From Escherichia coli O157:H7 (GTDB lineage: Bacteria; Pseudomonadota; Gammaproteobacteria; Enterobacterales; Enterobacteriaceae): DNA of 64,000 nt. Under the pieces are notes generated by a model, which ran no database searches, was not told where the DNA came from, and worked only from the letters and a program-made list of their open reading frames with translations. The position numbers and the translations under genes are program-made. This document shows, piece after piece, positions 3,001 through 47,610 of this stretch; the stretch's first letter is position 1, and each line of letters begins with the position of its first letter. Where the stretch lies: NCBI RefSeq assembly GCF_013167455.1, contig NZ_CP038328.1; one strand, 5' to 3'.

Positions 3001-3811
3001 ACGATGCGCAGAGTGCTGGTTCTGGGGGCAAAAATTCGGGCGCATTGACAGTGATATCACCATTTCTGGCAATACATTAACGCTGACCAATGGACTGATT
3101 GATACTGGTTTTTCGCGGCTCACTGCCGATGGTGAATGGATTAACAATCCGGGGAATGAACGTACCTCGCTGAAAGGAAAACTGCGCGGGCAGAAAATTG
3201 ATGCCGCCGCAGAATTTTTTGGTGTCACGACGCCCATACGGCAGTCGTCATTTAATGTGGATTACGATTTACACTGGCGTAAAGCACCGTGGCAGCCAGA
3301 TGAGGCGACGTTGAATGGCATCATTCATACTCAACTGGGTAAAGGCGAAATTACCGAAATCAATACCGGACATGCCGGGCAATTGCTGCGCTTATTGAGC
3401 GTAGATGCCCTGATGCGTAAGCTGCGTTTTGATTTCAGAGACACTTTTGGCGAAGGGTTCTATTTTGACTCCATTCGCAGCACCGCGTGGATTAAAGACG
3501 GCGTTATGCACACCGACGACACGCTGGTGGATGGCCTGGAGGCGGATATCGCCATGAAAGGGTCGGTAAATCTGGTACGTCGCGACCTGAATATGGAAGC
3601 GGTTGTCGCACCAGAGATTTCTGCGACAGTGGGCGTGGCTGCGGCTTTTGCGGTTAACCCCATTGTTGGCGCGGCAGTGTTTGCCGCCAGTAAAGTGCTG
3701 GGGCCGCTGTGGAGCAAAGTCTCCATTTTGCGCTATCACATTTCGGGTCCGCTGGACGATCCGCAAATCAACGAAGTGTTGCGCCAACCGCGTAAAGAAA
3801 AAGCGCAATGA
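11..3811 (+). CDS. yhdP: AsmA-family inner-membrane protein YhdP
   Basis: 1266-aa ORF with GTG start; N-terminal TM helix (LLLTGAALVVIAALLVSGL) then long soluble body; sits upstream of tldD as in E. coli. Confidence 0.9.
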   Translation: MRRLPGILLLTGAALVVIAALLVSGLRIALPHLDAWRPEILNKIESATGMPVEASQLSASWQNFGPTLEAHDIRAELKDGGEFSVKRVTLALDVWQSLLHMRWQFRDLTFWQLRFRTNTPITSGGSDDSLEASHISDLFLRQFDHFDLRDSEVSFLTPSGQRAELAIPQLTWLNDPRRHRAEGLVSLSSLTGQHGVMQVRMDLRDDEGLLSNGRVWLQADDIDLKPWLGKWMQDNIALETAQFSLEGWMTIDKGDVTGGDVWLKQGGASWLGEKETHTLSVDNLTAHITRENPGWQFSIPDTRITMDGKPWPSGALTLAWIPEQDVGGKDNKRSDELRIRASNLELAGLEGIRPLAAKLSPALGDVWRSTQPSGKINTLALDIPLQAADKTRFQASWSDLAWKQWKLLPGAEHFSGTLSGSVENGLLTASMKQAKMPYETVFRAPLEIADGQATISWLNNDKGFQLDGRNIDVKAKAVHARGGFRYLQPANDEPWLGILAGISTDDGSQAWRYFPENLMGKDLVDYLSGAIQGGEADNATLVYGGNPQLFPYKHNEGQFEVLVPLRNAKFAFQPDWPALTNLGIELDFINDGLWMKTDGVNLGGVRASNLTAVIPDYSKEKLLIDADIKGPGKAVGPYFDETPLKDSLGATLQELQLDGDVNARLHLDIPLNGELVTAKGEVTLRNNSLFIKPLDSTLKNLSGKFSFINGDLQSEPLTASWFNQPLNVDFSTKEGAKAYQVAVNLNGNWQPAKTGVLPAAVNEALSGSVAWDGKVGIVLPYHAGATYNVELNGDLKNVSSHLPSPLAKPAGEPLPVNVKVDGNLNSFELTGQAGADNHFNSRWLLGQKLTLDRAIWAADSKTLPPLPEQSGVELNMPPMNGAEWLALFQKGAAESVGGAASFPQHITLRTPMLSLGNQQWNNLSIVSQPTANGTQVEAQGREINATLAMRNNAPWLANIKYLYYNPSVAKTRGDSTPSSPFPTTERINFRGWSDAQIRCAECWFWGQKFGRIDSDITISGNTLTLTNGLIDTGFSRLTADGEWINNPGNERTSLKGKLRGQKIDAAAEFFGVTTPIRQSSFNVDYDLHWRKAPWQPDEATLNGIIHTQLGKGEITEINTGHAGQLLRLLSVDALMRKLRFDFRDTFGEGFYFDSIRSTAWIKDGVMHTDDTLVDGLEADIAMKGSVNLVRRDLNMEAVVAPEISATVGVAAAFAVNPIVGAAVFAASKVLGPLWSKVSILRYHISGPLDDPQINEVLRQPRKEKAQ

Positions 3812-3886: not shown

Positions 3887-3922
3887 TAGGCTGGATAGGG
3901 CGTTCACGCCGCATCCGGCAGC
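3887..3922. repeat. REP (repetitive extragenic palindromic) unit in the yhdP-tldD spacer
   Basis: gtaggctggatagggcgttcacgccgcatccggcagc is the reverse complement of the canonical REP core GCCGGATGCGGCGTGAACGCC..TATCC.GCCTAC. Confidence 0.75.
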
Positions 3923-3951: not shown

Positions 3952-5412
<1,461 letters not shown>

Positions 5413-5464
5413 TAATTTCAGTATTTTCAGAAGGATAATTAATCCTTCCTCGTGCACGAACGGT

Positions 5465-5501
5465 CCCCTCGCCCCTTTGGGGAGAGGGTTAGGGTGAGGG
5501 G
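5465..5501. repeat. GC-rich palindromic intergenic repeat, copy 1
   Basis: cccctcgcccctttggggagagggttagggtgagggg between convergent tldD and aaeR; the core CCCCTCGC..GCCCCT..GGTGAGGGGA recurs at 23306-23337. Confidence 0.55.
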
Positions 5502-5545
5502 AACCCGTTGGCACAGGTTTGTACAACGTAACAGTACAATATGAA

Positions 5546-6475
5546 TTACTTCTCTTTCCCGCGCCCGTGCATCTCCTGAAACAATTTACCGACCTCAACA
5601 AAATAATCCGTCAGCGAGTTGATCACGACCTGTACCTTCAGCGGCAGCTTATCTTTTTCGGTATATAACGCATAAACCGGGCGTGGATCTGACTGATAAC
5701 GCGGCAGCAGGATCTCCAGCTCCCCACGATTGATCTCGTTGATCACCCACATCAGCGGCACGTAGGCGATCCCGGCACCCGCCGTTAGCCAGCGCACCAG
5801 CGTCATCGGATCATTAGTCACAAATCTCCCTTGCGGGATCAGGCGAGTCGAGATCCCTTCCGGTGCAATCAGTTCAAATTCATTGTCGGGCCGCACGCTG
5901 TATTCAAGCCATGAATGGCTACTTAAATCGGCGGGTTTTTCCGGTATGCCGTATTGTGTGAGATAGCTTTTCGCGGCGCACACCACCATTGGCATCGCGC
6001 CAAGACGGCGGGAAAACAGGCTGGAATCCTGCAACGCGCCGACGCGGATCACCACATCCAGACCGTCGGCAATCAGGTCGGGGGCTGGAATTCCGGTAAC
6101 CAGATTGACGCTCAAACCTGGGTATTCTTTCAGCATTTTGGCTGTCAGCCCGGCGAGAACATTTTGTGCCATAGTTGAAGAACAGCCAATGCGTAGCGTC
6201 CCGATGGGGGTGTTATTGAAGGCATACAGTTGCTCATGAACATCCTGCACTTCATGAAGCATACGACGGCAGCCCTGGTAGTAAATTCTACCGGCTTCGG
6301 TCAGGCCAATGCTGCGTGTGCTACGGTTTAACAGCTTTACCTGCAACTCATCTTCCAGTTTTGACACCGTCTGACTGATGGACGAAACGCTCATCTGTAG
6401 CTGTCTGGCGGCGGCGGTAAAAGAGCCAAATTCAACTACTTTGGCAAACACCGACATGCGTTTTAGTCGTTCCAT
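5546..6475 (-). CDS. aaeR: LysR-family transcriptional regulator AaeR
   Basis: 309-aa ORF; N-terminal wHTH (FTAAARQLQMSVSSISQTVSKLE); divergent from aaeXAB. Confidence 0.9.
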   Translation of the reverse strand: MERLKRMSVFAKVVEFGSFTAAARQLQMSVSSISQTVSKLEDELQVKLLNRSTRSIGLTEAGRIYYQGCRRMLHEVQDVHEQLYAFNNTPIGTLRIGCSSTMAQNVLAGLTAKMLKEYPGLSVNLVTGIPAPDLIADGLDVVIRVGALQDSSLFSRRLGAMPMVVCAAKSYLTQYGIPEKPADLSSHSWLEYSVRPDNEFELIAPEGISTRLIPQGRFVTNDPMTLVRWLTAGAGIAYVPLMWVINEINRGELEILLPRYQSDPRPVYALYTEKDKLPLKVQVVINSLTDYFVEVGKLFQEMHGRGKEK

Positions 6476-38187: not shown

Positions 38188-38299
38188 CCCCGGCTAGACC
38201 GGGGTGCGCGAATACTGCGCCAACACCAGGGAAATCTTGGCTGCGCCGTAAATTATTATGATGAGTTACAAGGGCACTGCACTGTTTTTCAGGCCGCAC
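38179..38299 (-). ncRNA. arcZ: Hfq-dependent small RNA ArcZ (SraH/RyhA)
   Basis: minus-strand sequence GTGCGGCCTGAAAAACAGTGC...GGCGCAGCCAAGATTTCCCTGGTGTTGGCGCAGTATTCGCGCACCCCGGTCTAGCCGGGGTCATTTTTT matches ArcZ as I recall it; 3' hairpin plus U-run overlaps the arcB stop codon. Confidence 0.8.
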
Positions 38300-46623: not shown

Positions 46624-47610
46624 TTACACTACGCCTGCACGCAGTAAATCATGCATATGTAACACACCGAGTAAATGGTCGCCATCGGCAACCATCACGG
46701 AGGTGATATGGCGGGACTGCATTAAGTTCAGTGCCTCAACGGCCAGAATGCCAGGGCGCACGCGTATTCCCCCCGGCGTCATCACATCGGCAATACTTAA
46801 CTGACGAACATCCACGCCCATATCGAAGACACGGCGTAAATCACCGTCGGTAAAGATGCCTTCAATCATCATATTGTCATCGCAAATGACAGTCATACCA
46901 AGATTTTTGCGGGTAACTTCCAGCAATGCGTCACGCAGACTGGCCGTTTTCTTAACATGCGGGATCTCATCGCCCGTATGCATAATATCGTTTACGCGCA
47001 GCAGAAGTTTACGACCCAGTGCGCCGCCTGGGTGTGAGAGCGCAAAATCTTCAGCAGTAAAGCCGCGTGCTTTTAACAGCGCGACAGCGAGGGCATCGCC
47101 CATAACCAGCGTGGCGGTGGTGCTGCTGGTCGGTGCCAGCCCTAACGGACAGGCTTCTTTCGCTACTTTAACACACAGATGCACATCTGCGGCGCGCGCC
47201 ATGCTGCTCTCCGGGCGACCGGTGATGCAGATTAACGGTATGTGAAGACGCTTAAGCACTGGAATTAAGGCAGTGATTTCGCTGGATTCACCTGAGTTAG
47301 AGATAGCAATCACCACATCCTGTGGGGTGACCATGCCTAAATCACCATGCGCGGCTTCACCAGGATGGACGAAAAATGAAGGTGTACCGGTGCTGGCAAA
47401 CGTTGCGGCCATTTTGCGCCCGATGTGCCCCGATTTCCCCATCCCCATGACGACAACTTTCCCTTTACACCAGAACATCTTTTCACAGGCAAGCGTGAAA
47501 TTCTGATTGATGTATTGATCAAGCTCCGCCAGGCATTCACGTTCAATCGCCAGGACTTCTTTACCTGCTTGCTGAAAGTCAAAACCCGGTTGTAACTCTA
47601 CGTGCGACAT
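46624..47610 (-). CDS. kdsD: D-arabinose 5-phosphate isomerase (SIS plus CBS domains)
   Basis: 328 aa from ATG 47610 (MSHVELQPGFDFQQAGKEVL...). Confidence 0.9.
   Translation of the reverse strand: MSHVELQPGFDFQQAGKEVLAIERECLAELDQYINQNFTLACEKMFWCKGKVVVMGMGKSGHIGRKMAATFASTGTPSFFVHPGEAAHGDLGMVTPQDVVIAISNSGESSEITALIPVLKRLHIPLICITGRPESSMARAADVHLCVKVAKEACPLGLAPTSSTTATLVMGDALAVALLKARGFTAEDFALSHPGGALGRKLLLRVNDIMHTGDEIPHVKKTASLRDALLEVTRKNLGMTVICDDNMMIEGIFTDGDLRRVFDMGVDVRQLSIADVMTPGGIRVRPGILAVEALNLMQSRHITSVMVADGDHLLGVLHMHDLLRAGVV

What the first reader, a model, noticed from the sequence alone, without database searches (positions are those of the whole stretch)
5465..5501. Two copies of a GC-rich palindromic motif in unrelated intergenic spacers
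The tldD-aaeR spacer contains cccctcgcccctttggggagagggttagggtgagggg and the nanA-nanT spacer (23306-23337) contains tcccctcgctcgcccctaccgggtgaggggaaa. They share the core CCCCTCGC..GCCCCT..GGTGAGGGGA with internal dyad symmetry, and this core is distinct from the canonical REP unit at 3887-3922. It may be a small dispersed repeat family acting as an RNA stabiliser or terminator, or as a protein-binding site.
Basis: seen in the sequence. Interest (0 to 1): 0.25.

Follow-up and report, generated by a model that had tools for sequence, protein, structure and literature searches.

The report
Known BoxC repeat plus decayed copy
The two GC-rich palindromes are real and related, but they belong to the long-catalogued E. 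coli BoxC (also called PIT or TMECO) intergenic repeat family: one is a textbook copy, the other a decayed hairpin remnant, so the finding is ordinary.

Summary
Both quoted sequences are present and share the stated core.

Site 1 (5466-5500, between convergent tldD and aaeR) fits the published BoxC/PIT/TMECO consensus exactly: CCCTCNCCC-N3-6-GGGNGAGGG-N3-GGGNGAGGG. Its K-12 orthologue is entry 14 of Table 1 in Holder et al. 2015 (PMC4666352). The family is dispersed, with about 19 BLAST places per E. coli genome and 23 consensus copies in K-12.

Site 2 (23304-23338, between nanA and nanT) fails that consensus because one G block is missing. I still read it as a decayed family member, for three reasons:
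- A profile built from 22 independent K-12 copies finds it (E = 2.4e-4), and it is the only other hit in the window.
- Pseudocitrobacter and one Enterobacter carry full BoxC pairs at the same position, with homologous flanks.
- Site 1 itself shows 6- and 12-base deletion alleles in most E. coli genomes, so this kind of decay is ongoing.

Neither site looks like an intrinsic terminator, and published tests found no promoter or terminator activity. The site 2 hairpin is conserved across Escherichia; all four variable positions keep pairing in the sense RNA, which suggests an mRNA-level role.

Verdict: already known, low interest.

The parts
5444..5520 (+). Full BoxC element including conserved flanks, as aligned to the K-12 family profile
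   Evidence: nhmmer alignment to a profile of 22 K-12 copies: 61.9 bits, E = 1.3e-18. The flank consensus is visible in the 23 K-12 copies.
5466..5474 (+). C block CCCTCGCCC (pyrimidine-rich arm)
   Evidence: Match to the published TMECO consensus (consensus from PMC4666352).
5480..5488 (+). G block 1, GGGAGAGGG. This block is truncated in the 6-base-deletion alleles of other E. coli strains.
5489..5491 (+). Loop 2, TTA, which marks the element as type A
   Evidence: Type A/B definition in PMC4666352; sequence.
5492..5500 (+). G block 2, GGGTGAGGG
5459..5463 (+). Outer inverted-repeat arm AACGG, pairing with CCGTT at 5505-5509
   Evidence: Paired in the RNA and DNA folds. Comparable flanks occur in the K-12 type A copies.
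5505..5509 (+). Outer inverted-repeat arm CCGTT
23304..23317 (+). Site 2 hairpin 5' arm, TTTCCCCTCGCTCG, starting 5 bases after the nanA stop codon (23297-23299)
   Evidence: RNA fold of -29.1 kcal/mol, z = -5.8 on the + strand. All 14 pairs are kept in 7 Escherichia sequences.
23318..23324 (+). Site 2 hairpin loop, CCCCTAC
23325..23338 (+). Site 2 hairpin 3' arm, CGGGTGAGGGGAAA, containing the only intact G block (GGGTGAGGG, 23326-23334)
23296..23358 (+). Extent of the weak BoxC-profile match at site 2. Relative to the family it has a 12-base deletion (one G block plus loop) and a 4-base insertion.
   Evidence: nhmmer: 16.1 bits, E = 2.4e-4. Orthologues in other Escherichia score 12.9-18.0 bits.

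Best explanation
Site 1 is a canonical copy of the catalogued BoxC repeat of E. coli, also called the PIT element or TMECO; it is the type A form with one mismatch. Site 2 is a decayed copy of the same family that has lost or truncated one G block and survives as a plain hairpin.

How the family works, as far as is shown: it is a short, non-coding, non-autonomous palindromic repeat scattered in intergenic DNA, mostly just downstream of genes. When single-stranded, the strand carrying the C block and two G blocks folds into a hairpin whose second G block can lie in the groove as a purine-motif intrastrand triplex. This was shown in vitro by others for this exact 36-mer class.

Inferred: such structures favour replication slippage between the repeated G blocks, so copies erode by 6-base steps. 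The element has no demonstrated promoter, terminator or protein-binding function.

Inferred for site 2: once reduced to a hairpin, the remnant was kept because a stable stem-loop directly after nanA is useful in the nan operon mRNA. The most likely use is as a barrier to 3'-to-5' exonucleases that uncouples nanA from nanT transcript levels, by analogy with REP elements.
For: Identity of site 1:
- It matches the published consensus exactly.
- The 36-mer is identical to K-12 TMECO entries 7, 11 and 15. The K-12 orthologue in the aaeR-tldD spacer is entry 14 at 3,390,529-3,390,494, differing by one base.
- The flanks match the family as well.

Dispersal:
- BLAST gives a median of 19 places per genome across 5,425 E. 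coli genomes.
- All 23 K-12 copies were recovered at the published coordinates.
- The literature records a 56-bp BoxC with 32-33 copies.

Published properties: triplex formation in vitro, no promoter or terminator activity, and association with local variability.

Decay seen directly at site 1: alleles 6 and 12 bases shorter remove G-block sequence. Judged by identity bands, only about 38% of genomes keep the full element.

Site 2 as a family member:
- The profile hit has E = 2.4e-4 and is the only other hit in the window.
- The same profile hits nothing else in 310 kb of nan loci from 80 species except nanA-nanT spacers.
- Pseudocitrobacter faecalis, P. vendiensis and Enterobacter sp. kpr-6 carry full type A plus type B copies at the same position, with homologous flanks (TGAGTT..TT on the left, AAACGCATC on the right). 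Kluyvera carries a partly decayed copy.

RNA-level conservation of site 2:
- It is at least 99% identical in 5,389 of 5,409 E. coli genomes.
- All 98 pair cells are paired in 7 Escherichia sequences. The four variable positions all lie on the 5' arm and all keep pairing as G-U wobbles in the sense RNA.
- The sense strand folds about 10 kcal/mol better than the antisense strand.
- 77 of 80 species have a structured insert (REP-like, BoxC or other) in this spacer.
Against: - Site 2 fails the defining three-block consensus and its profile score is weak (16 bits). Convergence of two GC-rich hairpins cannot be fully excluded.
- The orientation and exact deletion history of site 2 are ambiguous because the remnant is nearly palindromic.
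- No compensatory double changes were seen in the site 2 stem, only one-sided wobble changes from four or so events.
- Triplex formation has not been shown in vivo: DMS footprinting was negative in PMC4666352.
- The link between structure and the 6-base deletions is inference.
- No experiment shows an mRNA-stabilising effect of any BoxC copy.
- I could not obtain outgroup tldD-aaeR spacers, so the view that the short site 1 alleles are derived rests on their departure from the family consensus.
Confidence: 0.88

Rival explanations
1. Site 2 is an unrelated, independently evolved GC-rich stem-loop, and its resemblance to BoxC is convergence or chance. Only site 1 belongs to the family.
For: Site 2 lacks the second G block and fails the consensus. 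Its profile score is only 16 bits. The specific sequence is single-copy in E. coli. Many species have other, unrelated hairpins at this position.
Against: - The shared 12-mer GGGTGAGGGGAA plus CCCCTCGC and the flank similarity give E = 2.4e-4, and it is the only extra hit in 128 kb searched.
- Related genera have full BoxC copies at the identical position with alignable flanks.
- The same profile hits no other part of 310 kb of nan loci.
- Site 1 shows the same kind of block loss as a live polymorphism.
Confidence: 0.12
2. Both copies act as transcription terminators or 3'-end RNA stabilisers, and the family is maintained for that function.
For: Both sites fold into stable hairpins as RNA (-30.8 and -29.1 kcal/mol). 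16 of 18 K-12 loci lie downstream of at least one gene's 3' end, and 7 of 18 lie between convergent genes. Site 2 shows sense-strand wobble conservation.
Against: - No T-run follows either stem, and the terminator scan found none.
- Published reporter tests found no terminator or promoter activity for PIT elements (Hoyne and Maher 2002, as summarised in PMC4666352).
- Copies occur in both orientations relative to transcription.
- Site 1 is eroded in most E. coli genomes, which argues against strong selection on it.
Confidence: 0.15
3. The element works at the DNA level as a binding site for a protein, such as a nucleoid protein, gyrase or a dedicated transposase, in the way REP/BIME elements bind IHF, gyrase and RAYT transposases.
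For: The block sequences are strikingly conserved across distant hosts: the regex matches more than 120 IMG/VR contigs with 49-70% GC and varied loops. Flanks are also conserved within E. coli. Both would fit recognition by a protein.
Against: No binding protein is reported in the literature I could search, and nothing in the window suggests a linked gene. The block conservation is equally explained by the base-triplet requirements of the triplex fold.
Confidence: 0.07
4. The G-rich strand of site 1 acts as a G-quadruplex in DNA or RNA that regulates the neighbouring genes.
For: GGGGAGAGGGTTAGGGTGAGGGG is a canonical four-tract G4 motif, one of only two in the window.
Against: NMR in PMC4666352 showed 18 imino signals consistent with a triplex rather than a quadruplex for the full oligonucleotide. 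Two G4 motifs in 64 kb is about what shuffles give (mean 1.4). Site 2 and the deleted site 1 alleles lack the motif.
Confidence: 0.04

Closest known systems
BoxC / PIT element / TMECO (Bergler et al. 1992; Hoyne et al. 2000; Hoyne and Maher 2002; Holder et al. 2015, PMC4666352)
   Same: Site 1 has the exact consensus, a type A loop and the one-mismatch C block. It is intergenic, has the family's flanks, and sits at the locus listed as K-12 TMECO entry 14. Site 2 shares the C-block start, one intact G block and flank similarity.
   Different: Site 2 lacks one G block, carries a 4-base insertion in the C block, cannot form the three-block triplex, and is not in the published list of 23. Unlike typical TMECO loci, which are described as variable, it is nearly invariant within E. 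coli.
REP / BIME (PU) elements
   Same: Both are short GC-rich palindromes in intergenic DNA near gene 3' ends and inside operons. REP-like elements occupy the same nanA-nanT slot in Citrobacter, Salmonella and many Enterobacter. The proposed RNA-hairpin role for site 2 is the role established for REP (from general knowledge of malE-malF, not tested here).
   Different: There is no sequence similarity to the REP unit at window 3887-3922. REP has a known RAYT transposase partner, whereas none is known for BoxC. REP has no triple-block architecture.
Rho-independent terminators
   Same: A GC-rich stem-loop at the end of a gene.
   Different: No U-tract follows either stem, and site 2 lies inside an operon upstream of nanT.

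Membership tests
BoxC / PIT / TMECO | Three-block consensus CCCTCNCCC N3-6 GGGNGAGGG N3 GGGNGAGGG (site 1) | tested here: met
   Regex match at 5466-5500 on the + strand, the only one in the window. Consensus taken from PMC4666352.
BoxC / PIT / TMECO | Three-block consensus (site 2) | tested here: not met
   No match. Only one exact G block (23326-23334) and a split C block.
BoxC / PIT / TMECO | The locus is in the published catalogue | tested here: met
   The K-12 aaeR-tldD copy at 3,390,529-3,390,494 is Table 1 entry 14. The nanA-nanT site is absent from that table.
BoxC / PIT / TMECO | Multi-copy dispersal in the genome, always intergenic | tested here: met
   Median of 19 BLAST places per genome in 5,425 genomes. 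23 K-12 copies, all between genes. Both window sites are intergenic.
BoxC / PIT / TMECO | Family-specific flanks that extend the core to the roughly 56-bp BoxC unit | tested here: met
   Site 1 aligns over 5444-5520 to the profile of 22 other copies, and the flank pattern is visible. Site 2 aligns only weakly (16.1 bits, E = 2.4e-4).
BoxC / PIT / TMECO | The G-rich strand folds into an intrastrand purine-motif triplex | not testable with these tools
   Shown by CD and NMR for type A one-mismatch oligonucleotides in PMC4666352. Their G-to-C control oligo is derived from the same 36-mer as site 1. Nearest-neighbour folding here shows only the hairpin.
REP / BIME | REP consensus sequence (GCCGGATG...CATCCGGC type palindrome) | tested here: not met
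   By direct reading, neither site shares sequence with the REP at 3887-3922.
Intrinsic terminator | GC-rich stem-loop followed by a T-run | tested here: not met
   Zero terminator-like sites in 5380-5580 and in 23270-23430.
Any Rfam RNA family | Covariance-model match at or near the gathering score | tested here: not met
   The best scores were 16.5 and 15.6 bits, far below the gathering thresholds.

The most novel reading that the evidence does not exclude
The nanA-nanT hairpin is an exapted BoxC remnant kept by selection as an intercistronic RNA stem-loop that sets the relative levels of nanA and nanT message. The same 'hairpin slot' directly after nanA would then have been filled independently by BoxC, REP or other palindromes in different enterobacterial genera. 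That would make the slot a natural experiment on interchangeable selfish repeats serving one RNA function.
Probability: 0.35. Interest if true: 0.3.

Novelty: already known. Interest (0 to 1): 0.1.

Why it matters
It matters little as a discovery, because the family has been described under three names since 1992 and site 1 is a listed copy.

The modest added value is descriptive:
- A clean allelic series (full, minus 6, minus 12 bases) at the tldD-aaeR copy across about 5,400 E. coli genomes. This illustrates the block-slippage decay behind the reported instability of these elements.
- A fixed, conserved remnant in the nan operon, with full copies at the same position in related genera. This suggests that a decayed selfish repeat can be retained as an RNA hairpin.

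Neither point changes how the family is understood.

Tried and rejected
- Short-word enrichment in the window was uninformative. GGTGAGGGG with one mismatch gave 14 matches against 9.1 expected, and CCCCTCGCCCCT with two mismatches gave 3 against 4.0.
- Rfam at gathering and at permissive thresholds returned only chance-level hits at both sites.
- Promoter and terminator scans found no terminator at either site. The single weak promoter-like match lies inside the tldD end.
- The K-12 RefSeq record as served here carries no repeat_region features, so I could not check whether the original 33 BoxC annotations include the nanA-nanT site.
- Three literature searches with 'box C' terms mostly returned unrelated papers. 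A search for a described nanA-nanT stem-loop found nothing relevant, and no follow-up work on TMECO turned up after 2015.
- I first modelled site 2 as the collapse of a head-to-head BoxC pair down to its outer blocks. Alignment to P. vendiensis shows that a single type B element with a truncated middle block explains it equally well, so I leave the exact history open.
- I considered a G-quadruplex reading and set it aside (and the NMR result).

Full report
**Observation**

The window is E. coli, 100% identical to O157:H7 strains over the region tested. The second string is at 23306-23338, one base longer than stated.

Site 1 lies between the 3' ends of tldD (+ strand, ends at 5412) and aaeR (- strand, ends at 5546). 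Site 2 begins a few bases after the nanA stop codon (23297-23299) and lies 108 bases upstream of the nanT ATG at 23408. The REP unit at 3887-3922 is a different sequence.

Short-word counts are not decisive. GGTGAGGGG occurs exactly only at the two sites, but with one mismatch it is not enriched.

**What site 1 is**

The sequence parses as CCCTCGCCC-CTTTG-GGGAGAGGG-TTA-GGGTGAGGG-G. This fits the consensus 5'-CCCTCNCCC N3-6 GGGNGAGGG N3 GGGNGAGGG published for the 'TMECO' motif by Holder et al. 2015 (PMC4666352).

That paper states the motif is the one first described as BoxC in the 1990s (Bergler et al. 1992) and rediscovered as 'potential intrastrand triplex' (PIT) elements by Hoyne, Maher and colleagues in 2000 and 2002. 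Its Table 1 lists 23 copies in K-12 MG1655. Entry 14, at 3,390,529-3,390,494, is the aaeR-tldD copy. I confirmed this by fetching that region of NC_000913.3. The K-12 copy differs from the window by one base (GGGTGAGGG instead of GGGAGAGGG in G block 1). The window's 36-mer is identical to entries 7, 11 and 15.

Other papers list BoxC as a 56-bp repeat (range 51-59 bp), with 32-33 copies annotated in the K-12 record.

**Dispersal and full extent of the element**

A 66-base query centred on site 1 finds a median of 19 places per genome in 5,425 of 5,426 complete E. coli genomes.

I fetched all 18 K-12 loci, which hold the 23 copies, at the published coordinates and recovered every copy. Lined up, they show that similarity extends beyond the 36-base core:
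- Type A copies have GYGCAC-n4-5-CRGTC upstream and GAAC-n5-6-GCAC downstream. These form an outer inverted repeat; in the window it is AACGG at 5459-5463 and CCGTT at 5505-5509.
- Type B copies have a T-rich upstream flank and a different downstream flank.

This accounts for the 56-bp BoxC unit.

The 18 K-12 loci comprise 7 between convergent genes, 9 between co-directional genes and 2 between divergent genes. Elements occur in either orientation relative to transcription.

**What site 2 is**

Site 2 fails the consensus. It has one exact G block (23326-23334) and a C block interrupted by four extra bases. It is not in the published table. Three lines of evidence nevertheless place it in the family.

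1. Profile match. A profile HMM built from the 22 K-12 copies other than the orthologue of site 1 scores site 1 at 61.9 bits (E = 1.3e-18) and site 2 at 16.1 bits (E = 2.4e-4). The site 2 alignment shows a 12-base gap equal to one G block plus loop, a 4-base insertion, and continued similarity into the downstream flank. There is no other hit in the window.

2. Orthologous spacers. I retrieved the nanA-nanT spacer from 80 species genomes.
   - All Escherichia species carry the hairpin.
   - Pseudocitrobacter faecalis, P. vendiensis and Enterobacter sp. kpr-6 carry full type A and type B BoxC copies at the same position directly after the nanA stop. The flanks align to the Escherichia spacer on both sides.
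   - Kluyvera has a partly decayed single copy.
   - Citrobacter, Salmonella and most Enterobacter have REP-like elements there instead.
   - Two Trabulsiella genomes have a bare 32-33 base spacer.
   - The K-12 profile hits these 310 kb of nan loci only in the nanA-nanT spacers of the genera just named.

3. Decay observed at site 1. The same kind of decay is visible as a polymorphism at site 1 (next section).

The exact history of site 2 is not resolved. It could be a single element that lost a block, or the collapse of an inverted pair. The remnant is nearly palindromic and aligns plausibly either way.

**Decay at site 1**

Across E. coli genomes the tldD-aaeR spacer occurs in three lengths. 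Alignment of representatives shows:
- the full element in O157 and K-12;
- a 6-base deletion that truncates G block 1 (CCCTCGC[T/C]CCTCTG-GGG-TTA-GGGTGAGGGG);
- a 12-base deletion that leaves CCCTCGCCCCTCTGGGGTTAGGGG.

Judged by the identity bands of two searches, roughly 38% of genomes keep the full element, about 52-58% have the 6-base deletion and about 10% the 12-base deletion. These proportions reflect database sampling.

I infer that the short forms are derived, because the full form matches an independently defined family consensus. I did not obtain outgroup spacers to confirm this. The pattern fits the report that TMECO loci are often 'mutated' or degenerate between strains.

**Structure and likely mechanism**

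As RNA, site 1 folds at -30.8 kcal/mol on the + strand (z = -2.9) and -25.1 kcal/mol on the - strand. Site 2 folds at -29.1 kcal/mol on the + strand (z = -5.8) but only -19.1 kcal/mol on the - strand. The DNA folds are analogous. Neither site is followed by a T-run, and no terminator-like site was found. No Rfam family matches.

From the literature:
- The G-rich strand forms a stable purine-motif intrastrand triplex in vitro.
- Duplex formation wins when the complement is present.
- In vivo DMS footprinting did not show the triplex.
- PIT elements blocked DNA polymerase in vitro but had no promoter, terminator or other measured activity in vivo.
- The loci are more variable than controls.

The G strand of site 1 is also a canonical G4 motif, but the published NMR data favour the triplex.

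My reading is that BoxC is a selfish or neutral palindromic repeat whose repeated G blocks make it prone to slippage, and that it has no required function at site 1.

**Site 2 appears to be under constraint**

- It is at least 99% identical in 5,389 of 5,409 E. coli genomes.
- In seven Escherichia sequences all 14 stem pairs are kept. The four variable positions are all on the 5' arm, and all keep pairing as wobbles (C/U opposite G, or A/G opposite U). These pair in the sense RNA but would be A-C mismatches in the antisense strand. By my rough estimate, only about one in six to one in three random substitutions would preserve pairing, so four out of four is suggestive (p of order 0.01). There are no double compensatory changes, and the events are few.
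- Almost every genus has some stable palindrome in this slot.

Together this points to a sense-RNA hairpin role in the nan operon message. The most plausible role is protection of the upstream nanA segment from 3' exonucleases, as is known for REP elements. This is inference, not shown.

**Comparison with known families, and novelty**

Site 1 is a member of BoxC/PIT/TMECO on every feature I could test. Site 2 works like, and probably descends from, that family but fails its defining consensus, so I file it as a relic rather than a member. Neither site is REP, an intrinsic terminator or an Rfam family.

Interest is low.

**Distribution beyond E. coli**

The contigs have 49-70% GC, and loops and flanks vary. 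This is consistent with the wide proteobacterial distribution reported. Many such contigs may include host DNA, so I draw no conclusion about phage carriage.

Noticed in passing
window 23378-23392 (hairpin GTGGGC-ATC-GCCCAC), directly 5' of the nanT Shine-Dalgarno GGGAG at 23396-23400; nanT ATG at 23408: A small hairpin just upstream of the nanT ribosome-binding site is conserved across many enterobacterial genera. Compensatory changes occur in 4 of 6 predicted pairs, for example GTGGGC/GCCCAC, ATGGGG/CCCCAT, GTGGGT/ACCCAT and ACGAGT/ACTCGT. It is absent from the Citrobacter/Salmonella type of spacer and matches no Rfam family. It could be a translation-control or processing element for nanT.
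   Followed up: partly
L010 (Pseudocitrobacter vendiensis) 2458-2742, nanA-nanT spacer: A tandem array of at least four BoxC type A units with a 73-base period (94% matches), next to one inverted type B copy, expands the spacer to 403 bases. BoxC can therefore amplify locally together with its flank.
   Followed up: partly
L085 (NZ_CP074792.1, a 154,743-bp 'plasmid' of E. coli 94_0962) 3001-3038: A perfect copy of the site 1 core lies between flgF and flgG on a replicon annotated as a plasmid that carries chromosomal flagellar genes. BLAST found 366 places on plasmids overall, which runs against the published statement that the motif is not on plasmids.
   Followed up: no
L087 (K-12 281101-290279): K-12 TMECO copies 3 and 4 lie inside the region annotated as cryptic prophage CP4-6.
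   Followed up: no
window 47419-47446, - strand: This is the only other canonical G-quadruplex motif in the window (GGGGATGGGGAAATCGGGGCACATCGGG). The count of two is about what shuffles give.
   Followed up: no
L044 and L046 (Trabulsiella) nanA-nanT spacers: These two genomes have a bare 32-33 base spacer with no palindrome. That may represent the empty state of a slot that is filled by REP-like, BoxC or other hairpins in 77 of 80 species.
   Followed up: partly
window 38192-38299 (-) and 59799-59920 (+): Rfam gathering-level matches to the ArcZ sRNA and the greA leader. These are expected E. coli features unrelated to the finding.
   Followed up: no
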